Shown: piece by piece, positions 16,640 to 27,444 of the stretch
How positions within the stretch are numbered: position 1 is the first letter of the stretch
Layout: every line of letters begins with the position of its first letter
Origin: Candidatus Bathyarchaeota archaeon
GTDB lineage: Archaea; Thermoproteota; Bathyarchaeia; Bathyarchaeales; Bathycorpusculaceae
Reading direction: 5' to 3'
DNA length: 64,000 bases
NCBI GenBank assembly: GCA_963715865.1
Contig: OY970280.1
Coordinates: forward strand, 1,248,001-1,312,000
Notes under the pieces: model-generated
Told to the model about the DNA's origin: nothing
Database searches by the model: none
The model's input: the letters and a program-made list of their open reading frames with translations, nothing else
Position numbers and translations under genes: made by a program

Positions 16640-16942
16640 CTACGCGCCTTTTTTGGCTTGCTTCTCACGTCTGTAAGCTTGAATCTCTTCTAAAACCTCT
16701 TCTTCAGTTAGCTTCTTCTTGCCCTTGTTCTGTTCGTCGATTTCCCTGAAAAGGTCTTTTAACTCCTCTCCCAAAGGCGGAACCTTGAGTTTCACCACCA
16801 CAAGCTTATCGTCCTTTCGGTAAACAACAAGCTTCGTGTTTGGAGTTATCATTAACTCTTTTCTAAGTCGCTGCGGAATAACTATCTGACCCTTAGTTCC
16901 CACCACAGCAATCTCAGGTTCTTCTTGCACTATTTTCCCCAT
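16640..16942 (-). CDS. AbrB/MazE/SpoVT DNA-binding protein
   Basis: VGTKGQIVIPQRLRKEL; likely start ATG 16942. Confidence 0.82.
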   Translation of the reverse strand: MGKIVQEEPEIAVVGTKGQIVIPQRLRKELMITPNTKLVVYRKDDKLVVVKLKVPPLGEELKDLFREIDEQNKGKKKLTEEEVLEEIQAYRREKQAKKGA

Positions 16943-17145
16943 AGTATAACTTTCATACCGACCGCACAAATAAAGTTTGCTCTCTCACATCCACAATTTG
17001 GTTACCTTAAAAGCCTTTTTCAATCATTTTTCTAAAAATTAACACTTTTCGAAAAAAAAATCTGTGTGTTTAACAGGTCTCGAGTTGTACTTAACTTTCT
17101 CTGATCTAAGAATAAATATTTAGTATTTGGCAGCTTATTGAAGTT

Positions 17146-18297
17146 TTACCGTTTTATGTGGTATTGTTCGATTACGTCTTTGGCTTTTTCTCTGCGTTCC
17201 CTGTGCTGCTCTAGGAACTTGTTGAGTTTGCCTACGAGGTCGGTTTTGCATTCGCCGCATAGCATTTCGCCTGATCGGCATTTGCGTTCGCGCTCAGCGA
17301 GTTTTGAATCATCTTCTTCAAACAGGTAGAAGTAGTATTGGAAGATGCTGCAGACTGCTGGGTCGGCGCCTGTTTTCCGCTGTTCCGCTGCCGTGCCTTT
17401 GCCGCCTGTGAAAGCGTTCCAAATCTTCTTTTTCACCACGTCCGGTGGGTCCATGGTGAATATGCTGGTTTCTGGCATGCTGGCGCTCATTTTTCCGCCT
17501 GCACCTAAACCGGGTAAGAAGCGGCAGTGGATTTGAGCTGGCTTGTAGTAACCGAGTTTTTGGGCTATGTCGCGAGTTACTCGCCAGTATGGGTCTTGGT
17601 CGATGGCGGCGGGGATAAGCGCTGGGACGTTTTCGCCTGTGAGTTTTTTATGGATGAAACATGGTGCGGCTTGGATGGCTGGCCAGAAGACCCAGCCGAT
17701 GTTGGTGCTGTCTTGGAAGCCAAAGCTGCTGCGTGCGGTGGAGTATGTGATGCGTTTGGCGACTTCTAATGTAATGTCGTAGAGAAGGTCTATGTCTTGG
17801 GTGTCGTAGATGATGAAGGTGTTTTCAGGTTTGAATCCCAAAGCTATGAGGTCTAGGGCGTTTTCGTACGCGTATTTGCTTGTTTCTTTAAGGTTGGCGT
17901 CGTCGTCTATGAGGAATTTTTCGTCGTCGGTTAGTTGGAAGTATAGTCGCGTATTGAATTTTTGTTGAATGTGAAGCGTAAAAATCCAAGGCACAAGATG
18001 CCCAATGTGGACTGGCCCAGATGGTCCTCTGCCAGTGTACAGGACGAATTTTATGCCTTTATCGTAGAGGTCAAGGACGGTGTCTAGGTCTCGGTGGCTG
18101 AAGAATATTTTTCTTTCAAGTTGAAGGTGTAGTTTTCCTGTGTGTTTTTCCACTTTCTCAATTAGTTGGGTGGTTAATGGTTGGGTTCCGAATTCGCGTA
18201 TTAAGCGCTCGTAGTCCACTTTGCCTTTTACTTCCCAGGGTGTGACTACCATTTCGTTGTTGTTTTCTTCAGCGTTTGATGAAGCCGTCTGTATCAC
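17146..18297 (-). CDS. trpS: Tryptophanyl-tRNA synthetase (archaeal/eukaryal type)
   Basis: LYTGRGPSGPVHIGH, AIDQDPYWR, KMSAS. Confidence 0.96.
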   Translation of the reverse strand: MIQTASSNAEENNNEMVVTPWEVKGKVDYERLIREFGTQPLTTQLIEKVEKHTGKLHLQLERKIFFSHRDLDTVLDLYDKGIKFVLYTGRGPSGPVHIGHLVPWIFTLHIQQKFNTRLYFQLTDDEKFLIDDDANLKETSKYAYENALDLIALGFKPENTFIIYDTQDIDLLYDITLEVAKRITYSTARSSFGFQDSTNIGWVFWPAIQAAPCFIHKKLTGENVPALIPAAIDQDPYWRVTRDIAQKLGYYKPAQIHCRFLPGLGAGGKMSASMPETSIFTMDPPDVVKKKIWNAFTGGKGTAAEQRKTGADPAVCSIFQYYFYLFEEDDSKLAERERKCRSGEMLCGECKTDLVGKLNKFLEQHRERREKAKDVIEQYHIKR

Positions 18298-18490: not shown

Positions 18491-19516
18491 ATGGCAGAAG
18501 AAATTTGGGTTCCGATGGATGGAGACACCTTTGTAACCAAAGATGGCTTCATACTCAACACTTTCGGATACGAACATCCAGACGACAGGGTTTTTGCATT
18601 TCTCAAGTACATCCCTGCCAAGTTCAAGGAGCTCTTTAACGTTGAAATGCTGGAGAGAACATGGAAGTTTGGTGAGAATCAGCTTTTTAGGGCAGAGAAG
18701 CTTTACACGGCGAAAAATTACCAGACTTTCATTGAAGCCTTCCGCAAGAACTTTCCAGATTACCTGTACTATTGCCCTTTTAGAAACAAGGAGTTAATCA
18801 CTGCTCCTTTCGATTTAATTGAGCGAGTTTTTGTTCCTAAAGACCGCTTGGTGTGGCTGGAAAACCTGCCAAAACATGACAAACTGCAAAAAATGGCTTT
18901 AGACCTCATCCATTTAGTATCCAAAGAATCAAATGTTAGCTTAAGCGATTTTGGAGTTCATGGCTCCATCGCTTTGAACATGCATGCGCCAGAATCAGAC
19001 ATAGACTTTGTTATTTACGGCACAGACAACTTCCGCCTAGTAGAAGAAGCCATAGCAAGACTTGTTAATACTGGAAAACTAAGCTACATTGTTGGCAACC
19101 GCTTGGAAGCAGCAAGAAAATTCCAAGGAAAATACCAAGGTAAAATTTTCATGTACAATGCAACACGTAAGCTGGAAGAAGTTAAAACAAAATATGGCGC
19201 TTATCGCTATATACCTCTTGACCCAGTGCGTTTCGAATGCACAGTCTGCGACGACACTGAAACCATGTATCGCCCAGCCACCTACAAAATCTCAGGCTAC
19301 AAACCGCAGGATCAGTTTTCTGAACTTAATTTAGACAAGATTCCTATTCAAGTCGTTTCTAACATAGGCTGCTACAGAAACATCGCCCGCGCAGGAAGCG
19401 AAATCAAAGTCGCGGGCAAACTGGAAAGGGTCGAATCAACAAATTCAAGCGAAGCTTATTACCAAGTGGTTGTTGGAACAGCAACTTCAGAGGAAGAATA
19501 CATTTGGCCAACTTAA
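18491..19516 (+). CDS. Predicted nucleotidyltransferase, paralogue 1 (COG1665-like)
   Basis: GVHGS...SDIDFVIYG Pol-beta-type motif; likely start ATG 18491. Confidence 0.8.
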
Positions 19517-20574
19517 AACTACGTGATCGAGACGCAATCCAGACGCATGAAGGCTTAATCTTCCGCGTCTTCGGCTACTCACATCCGCCCGGCGCTTACA
19601 TCTGCGACGCAGAATACGCGTCAGCAAACATTTTCAAATCAACAGACCCGCGAGCACCAAGAAACGGCAGAAACCAAATTTTCTACAAGTTCTATAATGA
19701 TGAAGGTTGGAAACTAGTTTCCAGTACATTCCAAAAATACACTATTTACCATGAAATGCTCCGCCGAAAAGTCATAGGCATAAACGAAGCCGACATAGCT
19801 GAAACAAGAAAGCCAGAAGAACGATTGCAAGCCTTAATCAAAACTGAACATAAAGATGAACTCATATCGGCAATGCAGCAAGTGCTTGATATTTCAACTA
19901 AAAAATCAGGGCTAAAAACATCCAATTTTGGCGTTTTCGGCTCAATGCTCCAAGATTTCCATCACCCGAAGCTTTCAGACATAGACCTTATAGTTTACGG
20001 CAAAAAAGAAAATGCCAAAATTCGAAAAGCTCTTGCAGCCTTATACAAGGATAATCGTTCAAGTTTGCATAACGAGTTTGAATCAGACCAAGCCATGAAG
20101 GGCAAGCAGTGGCGATTCAAAAATTTCAGCGTTGAAGATTTCGTTTGGCATCAGCGAAGAAAGCAAATCTACGGTTTATATGATGATAAAGCCAGCGGAA
20201 GAACCATAAAAGCTGAGTTTGAACCTGTGAAGGCTTGGAGCGAAATCAAATCAGAATATGACCCCAAGACAAGAATCAAGCAGAAAGGCTGGGTTAAACT
20301 TAAAGCTCGTGTTACTGCGGATGATGAAGCACCTTTCATTCCATCAATCTACAAAATTGAGCCCTTGGAAGTTTTAAGTGGCGAACGAGATGCACTTGAA
20401 GCAAAGAGGGTTCTGTCTTTCATGGAAGAGTTCCGCTTGCAAGCGCAAAAAGACGAAGTAGTAATTGTTGAAGGCAACTTGGAAGAAGTAGTGCCGCCAA
20501 AAGAGAGTTTCTACCAGGTCACATTGACTTATTGCCCACGCTACTATGAGCAAGTGTTGAAAGTGCTGCATTAA
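19504..20574 (+). CDS. Predicted nucleotidyltransferase, paralogue 2
   Basis: GVFGS...SDIDLIVYG; same architecture as both neighbours. Confidence 0.8.
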
Positions 20575-21590
20575 ACATGTGACAGAACCATGTAATCCGA
20601 CGGCTTATTGCCAAGTATCAAACGGTAATATTCGCCCAGGTTTTTCTTGTTGGTTACAAGCTCAACTTTTCCCTGAGCAGTCACCGCTTCAGCGTTTTTT
20701 GCTTGCAAACAGAACCTGCCGCGGAAAGAAACAATTTCCCGTATTGGCTGCAACTTGGGGCCTTCAACAACTTGGACATCTTCAACCTTGTAGGTGCAGG
20801 GCGTGAAAAGTGAATCTGAACTGTCAGCTATTTTGGCTGTTATTTTAGCGTAGCCACTGTTTTTGAAGCACACGTCACCGTACTGCTCGCTTATTTCGCT
20901 CCAATCCTTCACAAAACGGATAAAATAGTCGGTTCCCATGAACTTCCCCTGAAACGCCTTACGACTTTCGACTAAGATGAAGTCTTCGAAGCTCATCTGG
21001 GTGTCTTTCGAACGAAAATCGAATAAATCCTGCAACTCCGGTCGGCTGTAAGGCTTGAACTGAGAATCCTTATCTTTAAGCAATTTCTGCAAGGCTGTGT
21101 AGGCTTTTCGGCAGTTTTTTTCTCCGTAAACTATGGGGTCAATGTCTGATTTTTCAGTGGTTAATCCTGCCAATATCGAGCCGGAAATGCCTATAGCGCT
21201 CCAGGGAATATCCGCCTCTTTTTTCAGCGCTTCAGCCAGCCGCAACGCCTTATTCTCTAACGTGTCAAGATGCTTGGATGTACGTAGTAATGCAAGTTTT
21301 TCAGCAGGCTGATAATGCTCGGCTACTTCTTTGATTGGGACTTCACAGAGTGTTTCACCAAAGACCGAGTCAAAAACAATCAACTCAGGATGATTTTCCT
21401 GCAGATACTTGAACCTTTCATCGAGGCTGTACACTTTACCGTAAGTGCTGTCTTTGCCTTGCCGAGTACCCTGCGGCGTGGGAATAAAGCGGGGAAACGC
21501 AATAATTTTGCCGACGGGATGAACTAAGCCTTTAACATCAAAAACCACGTTGCTCTTTGTCTTAATTAAGTCACCTTCGCGTGCTCTCAT
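20571..21590 (-). CDS. Predicted nucleotidyltransferase, paralogue 3
   Basis: GISGS...SDIDPIVYG. Confidence 0.8.
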   Translation of the reverse strand: MRAREGDLIKTKSNVVFDVKGLVHPVGKIIAFPRFIPTPQGTRQGKDSTYGKVYSLDERFKYLQENHPELIVFDSVFGETLCEVPIKEVAEHYQPAEKLALLRTSKHLDTLENKALRLAEALKKEADIPWSAIGISGSILAGLTTEKSDIDPIVYGEKNCRKAYTALQKLLKDKDSQFKPYSRPELQDLFDFRSKDTQMSFEDFILVESRKAFQGKFMGTDYFIRFVKDWSEISEQYGDVCFKNSGYAKITAKIADSSDSLFTPCTYKVEDVQVVEGPKLQPIREIVSFRGRFCLQAKNAEAVTAQGKVELVTNKKNLGEYYRLILGNKPSDYMVLSHV

Positions 21591-21678
21591 GCAAATCCCT
21601 ATTATCTTGAGCGTAAGACCATTTAAATTGCTTGTAGCTTTTTACAAACTTAAATAAACGTTTTTCGAACCATTTTAA

Positions 21679-22638
21679 GTGGACGCAATAATGAGCAACG
21701 AAGAAAAATCACAGCACATTTCCAAATGTTTAGAGCTGGCGATACTGCTTGAAGTCAGCGCAGAAAAGCCAGGCAACGTCAACTTCACATCGGGCTTTGA
21801 AGGGACAAGACGCGAGCATTTCTTGGCTTCAGCCGTTGCTGCAGGACCATCCTTTCAGGAGGCTGCTTACCGCGGGATTTCGGTGGCAGAAAACAAACTT
21901 GGCATTAGCGAGGTTGGCTTGGGGCAACTCATAAAGACTTGCGCCATTGACGTTAATGCTTGGCAAAAAGGCGGAAATACCATTCTCGGCACCATAATGC
22001 TGTTTGTACCCATCGCTGTCGCTGCAGGCATGACACCAACCAAAAAAAATTACCAACTAGATTTCTCTTTTTTGCGCAAGAACATTGACTTAGCAGTTAA
22101 ATCAACCACTGCATTGGATTCAGTGCACCTCTACGAAGCAGTAGATATCGCTAATCCAAGCGGTCTCAATGATGCGCCAGACCTTGACGTTACCGACCCA
22201 CGTTCTAAAGAGCGTCTGATAAAAGAGAATGTTAGTTTGTATGAGGTTTTCAAAATTGCCTCAGGATACGATGACATTTGTTCTGAGTGGGTACATAATT
22301 ACCCAGTAACCTTCGATTTAGCTTATCCTTACTTGATGGAGCAACTTAAAAGTAAACCTTTGAGCACGGTTGTCGTTCACACTTTCCTTAAAATCCTCTC
22401 TGAACGTTCAGACACGTTTATTGCACGAAAAGTAGGCAAAGAAAAAGCACAGGAAGTATCGTTGGATGCTAAGGCTGTCTTGGAACTTGGCGGAATAGAA
22501 ACAGCCAAAGGCAAAAAAAGCCTCAGACAGTTTGACAGGAAACTGCGATTATCTGGAAACAAGTGCAATCCAGGAACGACCGCGGATTTAACAGCCGCTG
22601 CTTTGGCACTTTGCACCCTTAGCGGATACAGGCCTTAG
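21679..22638 (+). CDS. citG: Triphosphoribosyl-dephospho-CoA synthase (CitG/MdcB) homologue
   Basis: LEVSAEKPGNV, NTILG, DTFIARK, NPGTTADL. Confidence 0.88.
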   Translation: MDAIMSNEEKSQHISKCLELAILLEVSAEKPGNVNFTSGFEGTRREHFLASAVAAGPSFQEAAYRGISVAENKLGISEVGLGQLIKTCAIDVNAWQKGGNTILGTIMLFVPIAVAAGMTPTKKNYQLDFSFLRKNIDLAVKSTTALDSVHLYEAVDIANPSGLNDAPDLDVTDPRSKERLIKENVSLYEVFKIASGYDDICSEWVHNYPVTFDLAYPYLMEQLKSKPLSTVVVHTFLKILSERSDTFIARKVGKEKAQEVSLDAKAVLELGGIETAKGKKSLRQFDRKLRLSGNKCNPGTTADLTAAALALCTLSGYRP

Positions 22639-22733
22639 GCGGATTAGGGTTTTCTTTAACGTTAACTTAATCTATAATAGATTGGCATTTTTTTGGGAAA
22701 GGTTTAAGTGTTTTGTAAACAGTACTGTTTACG

Positions 22734-22961
22734 GTGACTATGATGGCTCAGGTGCAACTTAGACTGCCAGAAAAAACGTTAGAAGAGATTGACCGTTGGG
22801 TAGCAGAGGGCAGGTTCAAAAGCCGAAGTGACGCTATTAAAAGCATCATTAGCCTCTATGAGGAACGGGAGAAAACACGCGAGTTCTACAAGATGCTGCT
22901 TAAGCGCAGCCAAGAAGCCAAAGAGCACCCTGAAACGCTTGTTTCCTTAGAGGAAGCGTAA
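22734..22961 (+). CDS. Ribbon-helix-helix antitoxin
   Basis: VQLRLPEKTLEEIDRWVAEGRFKSRSDAI; abuts the toxin gene. Confidence 0.82.
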   Translation: MTMMAQVQLRLPEKTLEEIDRWVAEGRFKSRSDAIKSIISLYEEREKTREFYKMLLKRSQEAKEHPETLVSLEEA

Positions 22962-22962
22962 C

Positions 22963-23232
22963 TTGCTATTTAAAGTGCTTATGCATCCTAAAGCTGCTAA
23001 GGCACTGCAAAAATTGGATGCGCCGGACAAGGTGAGAATAAAGGAGGCGCTTAAGGAACTTGCTGGTGATCCATGGAAAGTGGGGAAACAATTGAAGCTT
23101 TCGGATTTTTGGAGTTTAAGGATAGGGGATTACCGTGCCATTTATGAGATTGATAGAGAGAAAAACCAAGTAGTGGTAATTTTCATTGGGCATCGAAAGA
23201 ACGTTTATGATGACTTCTCAAAAATGCTATAG
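22963..23232 (+). CDS. relE: RelE/ParE-family toxin
   Basis: GKQLK...WSLRIGDYRAIYEID...FIGHRKNVY. Confidence 0.88.
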   Translation: MLFKVLMHPKAAKALQKLDAPDKVRIKEALKELAGDPWKVGKQLKLSDFWSLRIGDYRAIYEIDREKNQVVVIFIGHRKNVYDDFSKML

Positions 23233-23258
23233 CAGAAAATGATAAAGGAAAGGTCGGC

Positions 23259-23474
23259 ATGCAGAAGGCCAGTCGAGATATTGATGTTCGAAAAGTGCTG
23301 ATGCAAATTGAAGCAAAGCAAGACTTGAAGCTTCCTTGGGCAGTGATAACCATAGACTATTATAAGGACATAGGCGACCTGAACATACTATTCAAAATGA
23401 CGCCTTTCACTGAAGGCGAACAAAGCGACGGAAAAGCAATAATCTACACGACAAAAAGGCAAAATATCAGTTAA
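23259..23474 (+). CDS. Small hypothetical protein, possibly truncated DUF2283-like
   Basis: ITIDYYKDIGDLNILF..EGE...GKAII resembles DUF2283-type proteins; ends abruptly. Confidence 0.4.
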   Translation: MQKASRDIDVRKVLMQIEAKQDLKLPWAVITIDYYKDIGDLNILFKMTPFTEGEQSDGKAIIYTTKRQNIS

Positions 23475-23520
23475 TAATATTAAAAAAACATCAAGAATAA
23501 TATAACTTGAAGGAAAACTC

Positions 23521-24483
23521 ATGGATAAAACTTTAAGCGTAAACCAGATGGCTTGGAAAATAGCTCAAAAATTGCTTGATAACCCCGAGTTTTATGGCGT
23601 AACCATTTCAAAATCAGCTGCAGGAGCCACAGTTGTTGATGCAGGCGTAAATGCTCCTGGCGGGTTTCAAGCAGGCAAAAAATTAATTGAGTTATGTATG
23701 GGTGGCGCTGGGAAAGCGCAGTTAGGCTTCAAAACCTACGGTGACTTAACCTTCCCATCGATAACTGTTAGTACTGATCACCCGGCGATTGCAACGTTGG
23801 GTTCGCAGTTTGCTGGCTGGCGCATTAAAGACGGCGACTCAATAGCAATCGGGTCTGGTCCGGTTCGCGCTCTGGCATTGAAGCCTAAGGATATTTACGA
23901 AGAAATAGGCTATAAAGACTCAAGCGACAAGGCAGTGCTCACGCTGGAAAGCAATAGCTTGCCTTCGGATGCACTTATTGAGAAAGTGACGACTGCCAGT
24001 AACATTTCAGCCGAAAACTTGATTGTTGTTGTTGCTCCAACCGCAAGCATCGCTGGTTTGACGCAGGTAACAGGCAGAATAGTTGAAGTTGGCATTCACA
24101 AGCTCAGAACTCTCGGTTTAAGTCCTAAGGTGATTCGTTACGCGATGGGTTATGCTCCGATTCCGCCGCTTGGCACTGACTTTGAAGTTGCAATGGCACG
24201 GACAAATGATGCTATTCTTTACGGTGGAACCGTCTACTGCACGGTTGACTTTGATGATGAGGCTGCCTTGCAGAAGATTATGGAGCAGGCTCCGTCTATG
24301 GCTTCGAAGGATTATGGAAAACCCTTCCTGCAGATTTTCCAAGAAGCAGACCGCGACTTCTACAAGATTGACCACGGCTTATTCGCGCCAGCAGTACTGA
24401 TCATAAACAACGCTAAAACAGGCAGAACCTTCAAAGCAGGACAAATCAACCCTAAGGTGTTAGCTCAATCCTTAGGATTCTAA
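23521..24483 (+). CDS. mch: Methenyl-tetrahydromethanopterin cyclohydrolase
   Basis: GSQFAGW, GSGPVRAL, TASIAG..QV..R..E, ND.ILYGG, DFYKID..LFAPA. Confidence 0.95.
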   Translation: MDKTLSVNQMAWKIAQKLLDNPEFYGVTISKSAAGATVVDAGVNAPGGFQAGKKLIELCMGGAGKAQLGFKTYGDLTFPSITVSTDHPAIATLGSQFAGWRIKDGDSIAIGSGPVRALALKPKDIYEEIGYKDSSDKAVLTLESNSLPSDALIEKVTTASNISAENLIVVVAPTASIAGLTQVTGRIVEVGIHKLRTLGLSPKVIRYAMGYAPIPPLGTDFEVAMARTNDAILYGGTVYCTVDFDDEAALQKIMEQAPSMASKDYGKPFLQIFQEADRDFYKIDHGLFAPAVLIINNAKTGRTFKAGQINPKVLAQSLGF

Positions 24484-24539: not shown

Positions 24540-25136
24540 CTATTTAGGTAAATTTAGTTTAAGGATTTTCTGGATCCTGTTCGCAATCAAATAACCTATT
24601 GGAATAGTGTAAAGCGCTAGCGTGGCATTGAAGAAAGCTGCAAATGGAAGATATGCTATTGTTGCTGCTTGAGGGAAACTATAGCCGATTGGTGATGGTT
24701 GAGGAAGTGCAAAGTAAAGGACGACTGACATGAATGCTACTCTGGTCAAGATGCCAATCGTTGTTGACAAGGTAGCCCATTTTGGCCCAAGTTCTGAGCC
24801 GGCTTTTTCAAGTTTTCCCTTATAAACTCTTTTGGCAATGATGTGTGCTGAAAAGATTCCCACTTGCATCGATAATGTTGCGGTAAGGTTGTAGAGGGGT
24901 CCGGTCGGGAGCGCTCCTGGAAAGACTGCGAACAAGACTACTGTGTTTATTAGTGATATGGCTAGTCCTGCGATGGGGCTGATTATTAGGAATGCTACTA
25001 CGATGGGTATTTCCCATATTTGGTATACGAGTCCTTGTGCGAAGGGTGCGTAAAAGCCGATGTATGTGAAGGTTGGATTTAATGCTATTGTTAAGGCAGC
25101 GAAGACAATTGTTAGTGAGAGTGTTTTTGTATTCAA
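24540..25136 (-). CDS. ECF transporter S-component-like membrane protein
   Basis: FAALTIAL..P...YQIWEIPIVVAF..ISP..G; six TMs. Confidence 0.65.
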   Translation of the reverse strand: MNTKTLSLTIVFAALTIALNPTFTYIGFYAPFAQGLVYQIWEIPIVVAFLIISPIAGLAISLINTVVLFAVFPGALPTGPLYNLTATLSMQVGIFSAHIIAKRVYKGKLEKAGSELGPKWATLSTTIGILTRVAFMSVVLYFALPQPSPIGYSFPQAATIAYLPFAAFFNATLALYTIPIGYLIANRIQKILKLNLPK

Positions 25137-25257
25137 TTTTTATTTCTCCGTCTCGGTTGTTCAATGCCGCCGTTAGCTATTTAAGAGTAGTTACTCAAAA
25201 AATGGTAGGCTAAAATTGATAAATAAGCCAACATAACATATGATATAGGGAAGCGTA

Positions 25258-26508
25258 TTGACGGAAACAATTCAGTTCTCATCGTCTGGCGAAGTGAAAC
25301 GTTGGCTTGAAAACCAAACAAGCTCAATCCTCTCGCCTGTACATGCCCAAGCCAAAAAATTAAGGGATGATATGAACATGGCGTTGCAGGGCGTCGGGGA
25401 TGTAAGCAAGATGCTTTTGGACAATAGTACAAGAGAAATCGAAAGAAGAAACATGAGAATTTACAATCGAGCCAGAGCCCTAAACAAGCTCGCTCATTTA
25501 TTCCTTGACCGTCTCAAAAAACTAAATCTACCAGAAGAAATCTCCTATGATACCGTAAGTAGGTATGCTCAGGAAACCCAAAAGGTCTTAATGGTAACTG
25601 AGATAGATATCAAGAATTGGTTTCCAAGAATTTCCCCTTTCTTCATCATGGATAGAAGAAAATTTTTGACTGTATACGAAAGGGCTAAACAAGCGTATGC
25701 AATCCTCAACGATTTTGTTACAAAAGAGTACATTAAAACTAAAACTTTGGAAGAAGCTTTCCAGCTTCTAAATGAACTTCAAAATGTCCAAAAACAACTA
25801 GTCACCATCGGAGAAGAAAAAGAAAAAATAAAGAATGAGCGCATACCGATCGAAAAGGAAATCGCTGAACTGGAACAAAAAATTGGTGAGCTGAAAAATA
25901 GCGGACCGATTGATAAGCTAAACTTGGTGAACGCTGAGATAGACACGTTAAGCGGTGAATTGAAACATTCGCTGAGGCATCTTCAAAAACCTTTCATAAA
26001 AATGCAAGCATTAGCCACCTCGGGTGGTGGAGGGGGAATAACTCCAGATGAGCTAAACAAGGTGAATCAATATTTGGAGAAGCCTTTAGACGCGTTTACA
26101 ACTGAGGAAAACGGTTATCCGATGCTTAGGGAGATTTTGCAGAAACTTGAGAGTTTAATGACAGAAGACAAATTAAAATTAAAACAAGATAAAGCACGGA
26201 AAGCCGAGCAATCCCTAAATGAGATACTCAGGAAAGACTCATTGGCAAAGCTTCAAATCAGATGCGTGGAAATGGCAACCACAAAAGAGCAGCTGTTAGC
26301 TTCTTCAAAGATGGATGAGATAAAACGTAGCTTATCCGTGTTTCAGGAACAGGTTGACCAGCTTAAAGCCAGAAAAACAAGCATCGAAACACACGAAGCA
26401 GTCAAAGAGAACACCTACAACGAGTCATTGGAGAAAATCAGCAATCTTAAGCGGTCAATTGAAAGAAACATTTACAGCTCAATTGAAACAAAGGTTCAAA
26501 TTCCCTAG
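25258..26508 (+). CDS. Long coiled-coil hypothetical protein
   Basis: 416 aa rich in E/K/L/Q with heptad-like periodicity; no catalytic motif seen. Confidence 0.75.
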   Translation: MTETIQFSSSGEVKRWLENQTSSILSPVHAQAKKLRDDMNMALQGVGDVSKMLLDNSTREIERRNMRIYNRARALNKLAHLFLDRLKKLNLPEEISYDTVSRYAQETQKVLMVTEIDIKNWFPRISPFFIMDRRKFLTVYERAKQAYAILNDFVTKEYIKTKTLEEAFQLLNELQNVQKQLVTIGEEKEKIKNERIPIEKEIAELEQKIGELKNSGPIDKLNLVNAEIDTLSGELKHSLRHLQKPFIKMQALATSGGGGGITPDELNKVNQYLEKPLDAFTTEENGYPMLREILQKLESLMTEDKLKLKQDKARKAEQSLNEILRKDSLAKLQIRCVEMATTKEQLLASSKMDEIKRSLSVFQEQVDQLKARKTSIETHEAVKENTYNESLEKISNLKRSIERNIYSSIETKVQIP

Positions 26509-27444
26509 TTGCCGTGTTTTGTTTTGGATTTATCTTTACTTGTCGAAGAAGCCCTGCGCATTCAAAGCAGCGGCTTTATTGAGGCAGTGGATAGAGCCGC
26601 TTCCTTGCTACGCGGTGAAAGTGGGCGAGTCGGCAACTTAACAATAGTAAACCGTTTAGTTAAGCTTGAACCGTTAGGCGAAGCGCTAGTAATAGGCGAC
26701 TTGCATGGAGACCTTGAAAGCCTCGTAGTTATCTTGCAAACAAGCCGATTCCTCGAGAAAATGGAGAAAACGGAGGAGGCAACGTTAATTTTTTTGGGTG
26801 ATTATGGTGACAGGGGAGATAAATCAGCAGAAATCTACTATACAGTTCTGAAACTTAAGCTTGCTTTTCCCAGGCAAGTTGTTTTGTTGCGTGGAAATCA
26901 TGAAGCGCCAAAGGATTTGTTGGGTTATCCGCATGATTTGCCTGAACAATTCCAAAACAGGTTTGCGGAAGATTGGCAGGCGGCTTATGAGAAAACACGG
27001 GCTTTATGCGCTTATTTTTACAATGCGGTGTTTGTGGAGGACCGCTATTTGATGGTTCATGGCGGCGTGTCTCCGGAAATCAGCAGTCTCCAAGACATCG
27101 CTTTGGCTCAAGAAAACCGCAATTTGGCTTTGCTGGAAGATTTGCTTTGGAGCGACCCTGACGAAGGCATAGAGGGCGTTTCTTTTTCGCCGAGGGGGGC
27201 AGGGAAGCTCTTTGGAAAAAATGTAACGGAAGATGTTCTTGGAAAGTTGAACGCTAAAATTTTGATACGCGGCCACGAGTCAAGTGACGTGGGCTTCAAA
27301 ATTAACCATGATGGCAAAGTCTTAACTTTGTTTTCAAGAAAAGGCTCACCATACTATAACAGGTATGGCGCATATTTGCAGTTGCCACTTTCAGAAAAGT
27401 TCGAAAATGCCACTCAGCTTGTTCCGTGGATTCATAAATTTTAA
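26509..27444 (+). CDS. PPP-family Ser/Thr protein phosphatase
   Basis: GDLHG, GDYGDRG, RGNHE, HGG, LWSDP, RGHE, TLFS; start may be TTG 26524. Confidence 0.9.
   Translation: MPCFVLDLSLLVEEALRIQSSGFIEAVDRAASLLRGESGRVGNLTIVNRLVKLEPLGEALVIGDLHGDLESLVVILQTSRFLEKMEKTEEATLIFLGDYGDRGDKSAEIYYTVLKLKLAFPRQVVLLRGNHEAPKDLLGYPHDLPEQFQNRFAEDWQAAYEKTRALCAYFYNAVFVEDRYLMVHGGVSPEISSLQDIALAQENRNLALLEDLLWSDPDEGIEGVSFSPRGAGKLFGKNVTEDVLGKLNAKILIRGHESSDVGFKINHDGKVLTLFSRKGSPYYNRYGAYLQLPLSEKFENATQLVPWIHKF

What the first reader, a model, noticed from the sequence alone, without database searches (positions are those of the whole stretch)
18491..24483. Three paralogous nucleotidyltransferases + citG + mch: candidate module for the missing last steps of methanopterin-type cofactor synthesis
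Seen: three divergent ~340-aa paralogues share an N-terminal domain (DGD/DRD/EGD..G..HP), a Pol-beta motif (G..GS..SDID..VYG) and a C-terminal OB-like segment. They are tightly packed (13-nt and 4-nt overlaps), the third is divergent from citG across 88 bp, and mch starts about 0.9 kb after citG. No citrate lyase or malonate decarboxylase/ACP genes are in the window. Known: CitG/MdcB transfers a triphosphoribosyl group from ATP to a hydroxyl. CitX/MdcG, a nucleotidyltransferase, then transfers the phosphoribosyl moiety to an acceptor OH and releases PPi. CitG homologues occur near mch in H4MPT clusters of methylotrophs. Methanopterin ends in alpha-ribose-5-phosphate joined by a phosphodiester to 2-hydroxyglutarate, and I know of no enzymes assigned to those steps. 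Inference: CitG ribosylates the pterin ribitol and the NTases form the phosphodiester. Three paralogues could build a lineage-specific or extended side chain, or a heteromer. Alternative: OB-fold RNA-modifying enzymes (trpS is adjacent).
Basis: partly seen in the sequence, partly recalled or inferred. Interest (0 to 1): 0.8.

Follow-up and report, generated by a model that had tools for sequence, protein, structure and literature searches.

The report
Candidate methanopterin side-chain enzyme module
Three old paralogues of an unstudied archaeal nucleotidyltransferase family (the family of M. jannaschii MJ1086) sit beside a CitG-like gene in this Bathyarchaeia genome. Across archaea the pair travels with genes for the one-carbon cofactor methanopterin, which makes them testable candidates for side-chain steps with no published enzyme that I could find.

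Summary
Three 23-26% identical, ~340-aa nucleotidyltransferases (NTases), a CitG-like gene and mch lie exactly as described.

- **Fold.** An AF2 model (pLDDT 96) shows a small beta-barrel, a Pol-beta NTase core and a C-terminal OB fold.
- **Co-occurrence.** In 201 Thermoproteota genomes the family tracks CitG (both 89, one only 12, neither 100). It also tracks RFAP synthase or Mch (both 95, one only 9, neither 97).
- **Linkage.** NTase and CitG are adjacent in many lineages, including Sulfolobaceae.
- **Context.** Five distant members lie in methanopterin or C1-cofactor gene clusters.
- **Methanogen member.** M. jannaschii MJ1086 is a full-length member.
- **Bacterial contrast.** Two proteobacterial H4MPT islands on plasmids carry the CitG-like gene but no NTase.
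- **No classical target.** This genome has no citrate-lyase ACP, CitX or MdcE.

The link to methanopterin-type cofactor synthesis is therefore well supported. The proposed chemistry (CitG-like ribosylation, then NTase phosphodiester formation) is only inferred.

Caveats:
- There is no similarity to CitX.
- Linkage to mch is loose.
- The family has at least four orthogroups, usually as A/B pairs.
- Full-length members also sit on Streptomyces plasmids without CitG or H4MPT genes.

The scan has already noted this module on other DNA (18 notes in at least 16 genomes).

The parts
18491..19516 (+). NT1: 341-aa nucleotidyltransferase of the MJ1086 family. It belongs to the NT1 clade, a divergent offshoot of type A. 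Its partner in a conserved adjacent gene pair is NT2.
   Evidence: PF01909, 22.8 bits. Aligned with NT2 and NT3. NT1 clade support is 100. NT1 is present in 68 of 70 Bathyarchaeia loci.
19504..20574 (+). NT2: 356-aa paralogue with a TTG start that overlaps NT1 by 13 nt. It belongs to the NT2 clade (type-B side of the tree), which was seen only in Mch-positive families among the 21 genomes sampled.
   Evidence: PF01909, 25.2 bits. The representative search found 569 clusters at E<=1e-3. NT2 clade support is 100.
20571..21590 (-). NT3: 339-aa paralogue of the widespread type B, convergent with NT2 (4-nt overlap) and divergent from the CitG-like gene.
   Evidence: AF2 model with pLDDT 95.9. Pol-beta core at Z 7.3-8.0 and OB fold at Z 7-8.9. 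hhalign to MJ1086: 100%, E 1.5e-69. Tree.
21591..21678 (.). 88-bp AT-rich divergent intergenic spacer between NT3 and the CitG-like gene. It is presumed to hold a shared promoter region; this was not tested.
   Evidence: Sequence read. The divergent NT3|citG arrangement lies within 600 bp in 53 of 76 related loci.
21679..22638 (+). CitG-like protein: a CitG/MdcB superfamily member, not an equivalog.
   Evidence: PF01874, 222 bits. NCBIfam CitG/MdcB equivalogs score only 28-51 bits against cut-offs of 272-477. hhalign to E. coli CitG: 99%, 256 columns, shared PKPG, GxNT, DT and NPG..AD motifs.
23521..24483 (+). mch: methenyl-H4MPT cyclohydrolase. It uses the cofactor and is only loosely linked to the module.
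   Evidence: PF02289, 391 bits; TIGR03120, 383 bits. mch lies within the upstream 7-8 kb in 30 of 58 related loci.

Best explanation
The block NT1-NT2 / NT3 / CitG-like is biosynthetic machinery for the side chain of a tetrahydromethanopterin-type C1 cofactor.

**Inferred mechanism**
1. The CitG-like enzyme uses ATP to put an alpha-linked 5-triphosphoribosyl group on the free 5-hydroxyl of the aminophenyl-ribitol pterin intermediate, releasing adenine. CitG does the same on dephospho-CoA.
2. An MJ1086-family nucleotidyltransferase then joins the alpha-phosphate of that triphosphate to a hydroxyl acceptor and releases pyrophosphate. In methanopterin the acceptor is (S)-2-hydroxyglutarate. CitX/MdcG do the equivalent step onto a serine.

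**What is shown and what is inferred**
- Shown: the genes, their folds and catalytic motifs, and their co-occurrence and linkage with each other and with methanopterin genes.
- Inferred: the substrates, the order of steps, and the roles of the extra paralogues. The family normally comes as a type A plus type B pair. This genome has a second pair (NT1-NT2) plus the type-B NT3.
For: **1. Coupling of NTase and CitG**
- In 201 Thermoproteota genomes: both 89, NTase only 10, CitG only 2, neither 100.
- The genes are adjacent in more than 20 genomes of several classes (coordinates).
- CitG lies in the locus in 70 of 76 Bathyarchaeia species loci.
- Metallosphaera (Sulfolobaceae) has a DUF1464-NTase-CitG operon.

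**2. Coupling to the cofactor**
- NTase against (RFAP synthase or Mch): both 95, NTase only 4, marker only 5, neither 97.
- The family is present in Mch-negative but RFAP-synthase-positive lineages such as Sulfolobaceae. It therefore follows cofactor synthesis, not the Wood-Ljungdahl pathway.

**3. Five of five informative contexts of distant members are cofactor clusters**
- L105: MptA-DUF447-MptH-like-NTase-RFAP synthase-DUF1464-Mer.
- L107: MptA, DUF447, RFAP synthase, DUF1464, MptH-like, NTase.
- L108: NTase/CitG-fwdDBAC-mch-ATP-grasp-CofE.
- L159: mch|NTase-MfnB-AA kinase-hydantoinase-ATP-grasp.
- L158: an Asgard-type contig (it encodes a gelsolin-domain protein) with tandem B+A NTases by a FwdD-like gene.
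- Sources.

**4. Bacterial contrast**
- Proteobacterial H4MPT islands on plasmids (Azoarcus pAZKH, Azospirillum p03) hold mch-orf5-CitG-like. They have no NTase anywhere on the replicon, whereas a positive control scored 3e-44.
- From my own knowledge, bacterial dephospho-H4MPT keeps the alpha-ribose but lacks the phosphate and hydroxyglutarate.

**5. A classical methanogen has a member.** M. jannaschii MJ1086 matches at hhalign 100%, E 1.5e-69.

**6. The classical CitG target is absent.** This complete genome has no ACP, CitX or MdcE.

**7. The catalytic machinery looks intact.**
- The CitG-like protein keeps the motifs shared with E. coli CitG.
- All NTase paralogues keep GS...DxD.

**8. No published assignment was found** for these steps or for MJ1086.
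Against: - **No enzymology.** The substrates are inferred only from gene context and chemical analogy.
- **No specific link to CitX/MdcG.**
  - hhalign of the family against E. coli CitX gives 0.3% probability.
  - None of 57 members hits a CitX or MdcG Pfam model.
  - The MdcG NCBIfam model scores 15.6 bits against a cut-off of 126.
- **The flanking domains often bind nucleic acid.** They are an OB fold and a small SH3-like barrel.
- **Too many active-looking paralogues.** The model needs one transferase, but lineages keep two to four.
- **Members outside the expected context.** Full-length members sit on 21 Streptomyces plasmids in a histidine phosphatase / APH kinase / NTase cassette without CitG or H4MPT genes.
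- **Exceptions in the profile.** Two near-complete Mch-positive Bathyarchaeia genomes (G021, G197) show neither NTase nor CitG. G183 has CitG and Mch but no NTase.
- **Uninformative methanogen context.** In M. jannaschii MJ1086 lies next to an unknown ORF and a GHMP kinase, not next to H4MPT genes.
- **Conflict with earlier biochemistry.** From my own knowledge, White's cell-extract work named PRPP, not ATP, as the ribosyl donor.
Confidence: 0.5

Rival explanations
1. The genes do serve methanopterin-type cofactor synthesis, but the NTases catalyse other steps than the proposed CitX-like transfer. For example, they might adenylylate or otherwise activate a phosphate or hydroxy-acid intermediate. 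Types A and B might do two successive transfers. They might attach lineage-specific head groups. The CitG-like product might be used differently.
For: The same comparative evidence as the best explanation applies. In addition:
- A/B pairs with intact catalytic motifs are the rule.
- There is no homology to CitX.
- The Streptomyces cassette pairs the NTase with a kinase and a phosphatase instead of CitG.
Against: No positive evidence points to any specific alternative step. The CitG-with-NTase against CitG-only contrast between archaea and proteobacterial islands fits the phosphodiester step best.
Confidence: 0.25
2. A CitG/CitX-like system that builds a phosphoribosyl-linked prosthetic group and attaches it to an unknown carrier protein of archaeal C1 metabolism, rather than to a free cofactor.
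For: CitG homology extends over the full length. The Pol-beta NTase is a neighbour. The OB or barrel domains could dock a protein.
Against: - No ACP-like partner was found in the genome.
- No conserved small carrier gene appears in the block across 80 loci.
- Proteobacterial islands need the CitG-like gene without any NTase.
- The module also occurs in lineages without Mch or the C1 pathway, such as Sulfolobaceae.
Confidence: 0.08
3. RNA- or DNA-directed nucleotidyltransferases (tRNA or other RNA modification or tailing). The OB fold would bind nucleic acid, and the CitG-like gene would supply a ribosyl-phosphate donor.
For: - The C-terminal OB fold matches SSB, RPA and AspRS-N at Z 7-8.9.
- The palm is most like PolX, TUT7, Trf4 and CutA at Z 7.3-8.0.
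- The N-domain weakly resembles Sm and KOW barrels at Z <= 4.9.
- The family's median pI is 8.4.
- trpS is adjacent in the window.
- Members occur on Streptomyces linear plasmids.
Against: - The family was not found in about half of the Thermoproteota genomes sampled (102 of 201). Those are almost exactly the genomes without RFAP synthase or Mch (97 of them lack both), although all have tRNAs.
- Contexts are cofactor clusters, not RNA-processing genes.
- trpS adjacency holds in only 20 of 66 close relatives.
- The OB domain's median pI is 6.1.
- All structural Z-scores lie in the range the tool calls common for unrelated folds.
Confidence: 0.07
4. A general small-molecule modifying or detoxifying nucleotidyltransferase (as the Streptomyces plasmid cassette with an APH-type kinase might suggest), with only an incidental link to C1 genes.
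For: Streptomyces plasmids carry a histidine phosphatase - hypothetical - APH - NTase (- methyltransferase) cassette.
Against: The archaeal distribution and gene order are far too regular to be incidental. The Streptomyces proteins lack the otherwise invariant E310 and may have changed function after transfer.
Confidence: 0.05

Closest known systems
CitG + CitX (citrate lyase) and MdcB + MdcG (malonate decarboxylase) prosthetic-group systems
   Same: A CitG-superfamily protein is homologous to E. coli CitG over its full length and shares its motifs. It is encoded next to a Pol-beta-superfamily nucleotidyltransferase with GS...DxD. The chemistry would fit the alpha-ribosyl-5-phosphate-O-hydroxyglutarate end of methanopterin: triphosphoribosyl transfer from ATP, then phosphoribosyl transfer to a hydroxyl with loss of PPi.
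   Different: - The genome has no ACP, lyase or decarboxylase, and no CitX.
- The CitG-like protein fails all NCBIfam CitG/MdcB equivalog cut-offs.
- The NTases are not detectably related to CitX and only faintly match the MdcG model.
- They have a different three-domain build (barrel + palm + OB, about 340 aa, against about 180-210 aa).
- They come as two to four paralogues.
- The proposed acceptor is a small molecule, not a protein serine.
Orf7 of methylotroph and methanotroph H4MPT gene islands (a CitG-like 'H4MPT-linked C1 transfer pathway protein')
   Same: It is a CitG-superfamily gene placed beside mch and ATP-grasp genes (PMC3615186; PMC11533326; Azoarcus and Azospirillum plasmids). 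The window's CitG matches these at 26-27% identity over about 90% of its length.
   Different: The bacterial islands examined have no MJ1086-family NTase. I found no published function for Orf7 either.
M. jannaschii MJ1086 (UniRef100_Q58486), uncharacterised 'nucleotidyltransferase domain-containing protein'
   Same: It is in the same family over the full length: hhalign 100%, E 1.5e-69, 330 columns, 30% identity to NT3. It keeps the HP, GVSGS and SDID motifs.
   Different: It scores about equally against types A and B (178 against 169 bits). It is not next to CitG or H4MPT genes. No paper in the library mentions it.
Pol-beta superfamily RNA/DNA nucleotidyltransferases (PolX, TUT7, Trf4, CutA; PF01909)
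   Same: The palm fold and GS...DxD motif match: Z 7.3-8.0, 86-90 aligned residues. PF01909 hits 49 of 57 members.
   Different: Only the roughly 120-residue palm matches. There is no PAP-central or associated domain and no fingers or thumb. The flanking domains are particular to this family.

Membership tests
CitG/MdcB (triphosphoribosyl-dephospho-CoA synthase, EC 2.4.2.52) | Full-length match to Pfam PF01874 above the gathering score | tested here: met
   222.2 bits against a cut-off of 27, covering residues 16-311. hhalign to E. coli CitG: 99%, 256 columns.
CitG/MdcB (triphosphoribosyl-dephospho-CoA synthase, EC 2.4.2.52) | Reaches the NCBIfam equivalog cut-offs (TIGR03125, TIGR03132, NF002315, NF007503) | tested here: not met
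   27.6-51.3 bits against cut-offs of 272-477. Only the C-terminal roughly 110 residues align.
CitG/MdcB (triphosphoribosyl-dephospho-CoA synthase, EC 2.4.2.52) | The genome encodes the acceptor system (citrate-lyase or malonate-decarboxylase ACP, CitX/MdcG, lyase subunits) | tested here: not met
   PF06857, PF03802 and PF06833 were not found in the complete 2.35-Mb genome. The E. coli control rang.
CitG/MdcB (triphosphoribosyl-dephospho-CoA synthase, EC 2.4.2.52) | Catalyses ATP-dependent triphosphoribosyl transfer with adenine release | not testable with these tools
   This needs an enzyme assay. The sequence motifs shared with E. coli CitG are kept.
CitX/MdcG (holo-ACP synthase; phosphoribosyl-dephospho-CoA transferase) | Sequence or profile similarity to CitX (PF03802) or MdcG | tested here: not met
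   hhalign of the family against E. coli CitX gives 0.3% probability. None of 57 members hits a CitX or MdcG Pfam model. NF002332 scores 15.6 bits against a cut-off of 126.
CitX/MdcG (holo-ACP synthase; phosphoribosyl-dephospho-CoA transferase) | Pol-beta-type catalytic motif G-S ... D-x-D | tested here: met
   G134, S138, D149 and D151 are invariant in 57 sequences and present in all three paralogues.
Pol-beta nucleotidyltransferase superfamily (PF01909) | Pfam match and palm fold | tested here: met
   NT1 scores 22.8 bits and NT2 25.2 bits against a cut-off of 21; NT3 scores 17.7 bits, below it. 49 of 57 members hit PF01909. The palm matches PolX, TUT7, CutA and Trf4 at Z 7.3-8.0.
MJ1086 family (uncharacterised archaeal NTase + OB) | Full-length three-domain homology to MJ1086 | tested here: met
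   hhalign 100%, E 1.5e-69, 330 columns. MJ1086 lies in the cluster of representative P0194, which hit NT2 at E 9e-24.
Tetrahydromethanopterin biosynthesis genes (functional set) | Phylogenetic co-occurrence with committed pathway genes | tested here: met
   NTase against (RFAP synthase TIGR00144 or Mch): 95 both, 4 NTase only, 5 marker only, 97 neither, in 201 genomes of one phylum. Relatives are not independent.
Tetrahydromethanopterin biosynthesis genes (functional set) | Embedded in pathway gene clusters in independent lineages | tested here: met
   L105, L107, L108, L158 and L159. This does not hold in M. jannaschii, nor for most pathway genes of this genome, which lie 77 kb or more away.
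Tetrahydromethanopterin biosynthesis genes (functional set) | Demonstrated activity on a pathway intermediate, or a cofactor defect in a mutant | not testable with these tools
   No assay or mutant is available, and no paper was found.
RNA-directed terminal nucleotidyltransferases (TUTase / poly(A) polymerase / CCA-adding type) | Palm plus the PAP-central or associated (or head/neck/body) domains, and RNA substrate binding | tested here: inconclusive
   Only the palm aligns. PF22600 was hit by 3 of 57 members, best E 0.0096. RNA binding was not testable.

The most novel reading that the evidence does not exclude
The CitG-like enzyme and the MJ1086-family nucleotidyltransferases are the missing enzymes that finish the methanopterin side chain through a triphosphoribosyl intermediate made from ATP, not from PRPP.

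On this reading, the ancient A/B split and the extra NT1-NT2 pair of Bathyarchaeia and related Mch-positive lineages mean that these archaea attach more than one phosphodiester-linked head group. They would then make a methanopterin derivative that has not been described.
Probability: 0.35. Interest if true: 0.85.

Novelty: new variant of a known kind. Interest (0 to 1): 0.7.

Why it matters
Tetrahydromethanopterin carries C1 units in four settings:
- methanogenesis;
- anaerobic methane oxidation;
- the archaeal Wood-Ljungdahl pathway;
- formaldehyde oxidation in methylotrophs.

To my knowledge, and in every literature search run here, no enzyme has been assigned to the steps that add the alpha-ribose-5-phosphate and the 2-hydroxyglutarate.

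A named, clonable pair of candidates makes that gap directly testable. A CitG-like gene and an MJ1086 homologue both exist in M. jannaschii and in genetically tractable S. acidocaldarius.

If the candidates are confirmed:
- the pathway could be completed for heterologous production;
- specific targets for methane mitigation would follow;
- it would explain why bacteria stop at dephospho-H4MPT;
- an uncharacterised family found in about half of the Thermoproteota genomes sampled, and also seen in Helarchaeota (Asgard) and Methanocaldococcus, would gain a function.

Tried and rejected
**Searches outside the phylum**
- The narrower A5 returned only Bathyarchaeia among the best 80 of 418 hits. I therefore got no genome handle outside the phylum and could not profile methanogen or methylotroph whole genomes.
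- A locus from the look-up of encoding contigs was not accepted as a genome handle.

**Structure and sequence look-ups that gave nothing**
- Foldseek against PDB: nothing at E<=1e-3.
- PDB sequence and profile searches: nothing.
- ESM Atlas by features and by shape: only the family's own clusters.
- The N-terminal domain folded alone gave only weak SH3-like barrel matches, best Z 4.9, which is not significant.
- A search for longer, fused forms (a Rosetta-stone test) found none, which is weak evidence.
- The 180-residue upstream extension of one open frame (G018) has no domain.

**Complex prediction**
- NT1 with NT2 scored 0.00, so there is no verdict either way.

**Possible extra partners or paralogues that failed**
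- The window's metallophosphoesterase (26509-27444) is not an orthologue of the phosphoesterase that overlaps the NTase in genome G046.
- MJ1085 and the 385-aa Streptomyces neighbour are not hidden family members.

**Soft arguments**
- Isoelectric points were not decisive: whole protein 8.4, OB domain 6.1, N-domain 9.2.

**Literature**
- Searches for an assignment of these steps, for CitG in methanopterin synthesis and for MJ1086 found nothing.
- Kalyuzhnaya et al. 2005 (PMC1151760) is not held.

Full report
**What is there**

The window is part of a single-contig, 2.35-Mb Bathyarchaeia genome, 97.9% complete.

| Gene | Coordinates | Notes |
|---|---|---|
| NT1 | 18491-19516 (+) | |
| NT2 | 19504-20574 (+) | 13-nt overlap with NT1 |
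| NT3 | 20571-21590 (-) | 4-nt convergent overlap with NT2 |
| spacer | 21591-21678 | 88 bp, divergent |
| CitG-like | 21679-22638 (+) | PF01874, E 1.4e-65 |
| mch | 23521-24483 (+) | PF02289, E 4e-117 |

The three NTases are 23-26% identical over their whole length. They are the only copies in the genome. trpS lies divergently upstream at 17146-18297.

The 0.9-kb gap before mch is not empty. It holds a ribbon-helix-helix antitoxin and a ParE toxin. This insertion is missing in a same-genus relative, where citG and mch are 360 bp apart.

**What the proteins look like**

The family gets only weak, generic Pfam hits to PF01909. It has no NCBIfam model and no relative detectable by sequence in the PDB.

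With a 57-sequence alignment, AlphaFold2 gives a very confident model of NT3, pLDDT 95.9. It has three domains:
- **N-terminal beta-rich domain (1-~105).** Folded alone, it resembles only small SH3-like barrels, at a non-significant Z of 4.9 or less.
- **Pol-beta palm (~105-230).** It matches PolX, TUT7, CutA and Trf4 at Z 7.3-8.0.
- **C-terminal OB fold (~240-339).** It matches SSB, RPA, MCM-N and AspRS-N at Z 7-8.9.

The invariant residues are H24 (the 'HP' motif), G134, S138, D149, D151, G156, P264, G307 and E310. All three paralogues therefore keep the GS...DxD catalytic signature.

The CitG-like protein is homologous to E. coli CitG along its length (hhalign 99%, 256 columns). The two share the PKPG, GxNT, DT and NPG..AD motifs. 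It reaches none of the NCBIfam CitG/MdcB equivalog cut-offs. The genome has no citrate-lyase ACP, CitX or MdcE. It is a CitG-superfamily enzyme with some other substrate.

**Who has the family**

The family is small: 569 clusters at 50% identity among 1.8 billion proteins. I ran four searches on the same sample of 201 Thermoproteota genomes and tabulated them.

| Gene | Genomes with a match (of 201) |
|---|---|
| NTase | 99 |
| CitG-like | 91 |
| RFAP synthase, strong hits | 72 |
| Mch | 50 |

| Comparison | Both | NTase only | Other only | Neither |
|---|---|---|---|---|
| NTase vs CitG | 89 | 10 | 2 | 100 |
| NTase vs (RFAP synthase or Mch) | 95 | 4 | 5 | 97 |

- Whole families either have all of these genes or none. 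Relatives are not independent, so this is a pattern over about 40 families, not 201 trials.
- Families without Mch but with RFAP synthase still have the NTase and CitG. One is Sulfolobaceae, named through, where Metallosphaera has a DUF1464-NTase-CitG operon. The module therefore follows the cofactor's synthesis, not the Wood-Ljungdahl pathway.
- Exceptions exist. G021 and G197 have Mch but neither NTase nor CitG. G183 has CitG next to Mch but no NTase.

**Gene order**

Coordinates show NTase and CitG side by side in more than 20 genomes of several classes. In 80 Bathyarchaeia species loci (62-94% identical NT3) the block is conserved:
- CitG is in the locus in 70 of 76 cases, and within 600 bp and divergent in 53.
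- NT1 is present in 68 of 70.
- mch is within the upstream 7-8 kb in only 30 of 58.
- trpS is present in 20 of 66.
- The ParE pair is present in 1 of 80.

The core is therefore NTases + CitG. The mch linkage is loose and the trpS linkage is local.

**Distant contexts**

Five of five informative neighbourhoods of distant members are cofactor clusters (typed):
- **L105:** MptA-type cyclohydrolase, DUF447, MptH-like pterin-binding protein, NTase (type B), RFAP-synthase-like GHMP kinase, DUF1464, Mer.
- **L107:** MptA, DUF447, GHMP kinase, DUF1464, MptH-like, NTase (B).
- **L108:** NTase (A) overlapping CitG, then fwdDBAC-like genes, mch, an ATP-grasp ligase and CofE.
- **L159:** mch divergent from NTase (A), which abuts MfnB, then AA kinase, hydantoinase, ATP-grasp and a HisA/F-like gene.
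- **L158:** a contig that also encodes a gelsolin-domain protein, as Asgard archaea do, with a tandem B+A pair.

Cluster look-ups add Helarchaeota, with both types. Following a lead from earlier notes of this scan, they also add M. jannaschii MJ1086, which I confirmed as a full-length member (hhalign 100%, E 1.5e-69). Its own neighbourhood is uninformative: an unknown 509-aa ORF overlapping by 4 nt, and a GHMP kinase that I recall as mevalonate kinase.

**Paralogues**

I built a tree of 49 members from 21 genomes (quick search, SH-aLRT support only). It shows four groups:
- a widespread type A;
- a widespread type B, which includes NT3;
- an NT2 clade on the B side (support 100);
- an NT1 clade on the A side (support 100).

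A-B adjacent pairs are the norm (G002, G018, G026, G057, G069, G098, G120). NT1-NT2 is a second conserved adjacent pair (G000, G162, G017, G057, G081). In this sample it was seen only in Mch-positive families.

This genome has NT1-NT2 plus NT3 and no classical type A. All groups keep the catalytic residues. The paralogues therefore look like distinct enzymes or obligate partners, not decayed copies.

A complex prediction for NT1+NT2 gave no verdict.

CitG-like genes do sit with mch in bacterial H4MPT islands. The papers are PMC3615186 and PMC11533326. The Azoarcus pAZKH and Azospirillum p03 plasmids show RFAP synthase, mtdB, ATP-grasp, mch, orf5, CitG-like and fae in a row.

A profile search of these two whole replicons (737 and 837 kb) found no NTase. 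The positive control scored 3e-44.

This fits the idea that bacteria, whose dephospho-H4MPT keeps the ribose but lacks phosphate and hydroxyglutarate (my knowledge), need the CitG-like step only. The rest of those genomes was not searched.

**An unexpected exception**

tblastn found full-length members on 21 Streptomyces plasmids at 25-27% identity (hhalign 99.9% over 306 columns). They sit in a cassette of histidine phosphatase, unknown protein, APH-family kinase and NTase, sometimes followed by a methyltransferase.

No Streptomyces plasmid matched the CitG query. These proteins lack the otherwise invariant E310.

The family can therefore work without CitG or H4MPT. The partners, a kinase and a phosphatase, point to small-molecule phosphoryl chemistry at least as much as to nucleic acid.

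**Reading**

I put about 0.75-0.8 on the claim that the module serves synthesis of a methanopterin-type cofactor.

I put about 0.4-0.5 on the specific mechanism: the CitG-like enzyme makes an alpha-5-triphosphoribosyl ether on the ribitol from ATP, and an NTase couples it to 2-hydroxyglutarate with loss of PPi.

The mechanism rests on four things:
- chemical analogy with CitG/CitX;
- the alpha-ribose-5-phosphate-hydroxyglutarate end of methanopterin (established structure);
- the contrast between archaea and bacteria;
- the absence of any other known partner.

Against it stand:
- the lack of any relation to CitX;
- the domains of the OB and barrel kind, which often bind nucleic acid;
- the multiplicity of paralogues;
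- the Streptomyces members;
- older extract work that named PRPP as the donor (my knowledge).

The RNA alternative is weak. The family was not found in about half of the Thermoproteota genomes sampled, and those are almost exactly the ones lacking RFAP synthase or Mch.

**Novelty**

I found no paper assigning these steps or mentioning MJ1086.

The scan itself has flagged the same module many times on other DNA. I used those notes as leads only. This report adds:
- the four-way profile on one genome sample;
- the A/B and NT1/NT2 pair structure;
- the replicon-level bacterial contrast;
- the Streptomyces plasmid members;
- direct confirmation that MJ1086 is a member.

Noticed in passing
window 22734-23232: A ribbon-helix-helix antitoxin (22734-22961, 75 aa) and a ParE toxin (22963-23232; PF05016, E 2e-11) are inserted between citG and mch. 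A same-genus genome (G190) has only 360 bp there. Only 1 of 80 related loci carries the ParE gene.
   Followed up: partly
G000:C1:1346675-1347609 (own genome, about 35 kb beyond the window's end): The RFAP synthase gene, the first committed methanopterin step, is split by a frameshift near 1347175-1347217. It sits inside a DUF447 - RFAP synthase - MptH-like operon. Same-genus relatives have it intact (317-318 aa). It is either an assembly error or a real pseudogene. If real, this organism may not make the cofactor de novo.
   Followed up: partly
L153 (Streptomyces albus plasmid NZ_CP103061.1, 116714-120575) and L154 (S. anulatus NZ_CP109348.1): Twenty-one Streptomyces plasmids carry a full-length MJ1086-family member. 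It sits in a cassette of histidine phosphatase, unknown 343-385-aa protein, APH-family kinase and NTase, sometimes with a SAM methyltransferase. No Streptomyces plasmid matched the CitG query and no H4MPT genes lie in the neighbourhoods read. Function unknown.
   Followed up: partly
L019 2301-3194; L105 11097-12248; L107 4497-5642: DUF1464 (PF07318) recurs next to the NTase/CitG pair in Metallosphaera and next to RFAP synthase in two other lineages. It may be a further unassigned methanopterin gene. tblastn with two DUF1464 proteins found none in this genome.
   Followed up: partly
L160 8475-10004 (M. jannaschii L77117.1): MJ1085 (509 aa, no Pfam domain) overlaps the start of MJ1086 by 4 nt. 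It is not a family member (hhalign 0.8%). It is a possible lineage-specific partner.
   Followed up: partly
L055 (DATHCJ010000013.1) and L100 (DATIXS010000125.1): Two contigs carrying the Bathyarchaeia NTase block at 76-77% identity are filed under bacterial MAGs (Limnocylindrales, Acidoferrum). This is most likely mis-binning.
   Followed up: no
window 24540-27444: Three genes recur downstream of mch in many related loci: a 198-aa membrane protein, a 416-aa ORF without a Pfam domain, and an abutting PP1-type metallophosphoesterase (26509-27444). The phosphoesterase is not an orthologue of the one coupled to the NTase in genome G046.
   Followed up: partly
window 16640-16969: A 109-aa ORF with a MazE/AbrB-type antitoxin domain (PF04014, E 3e-8) lies between a flavin reductase gene and trpS. 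No toxin partner was looked for.
   Followed up: no
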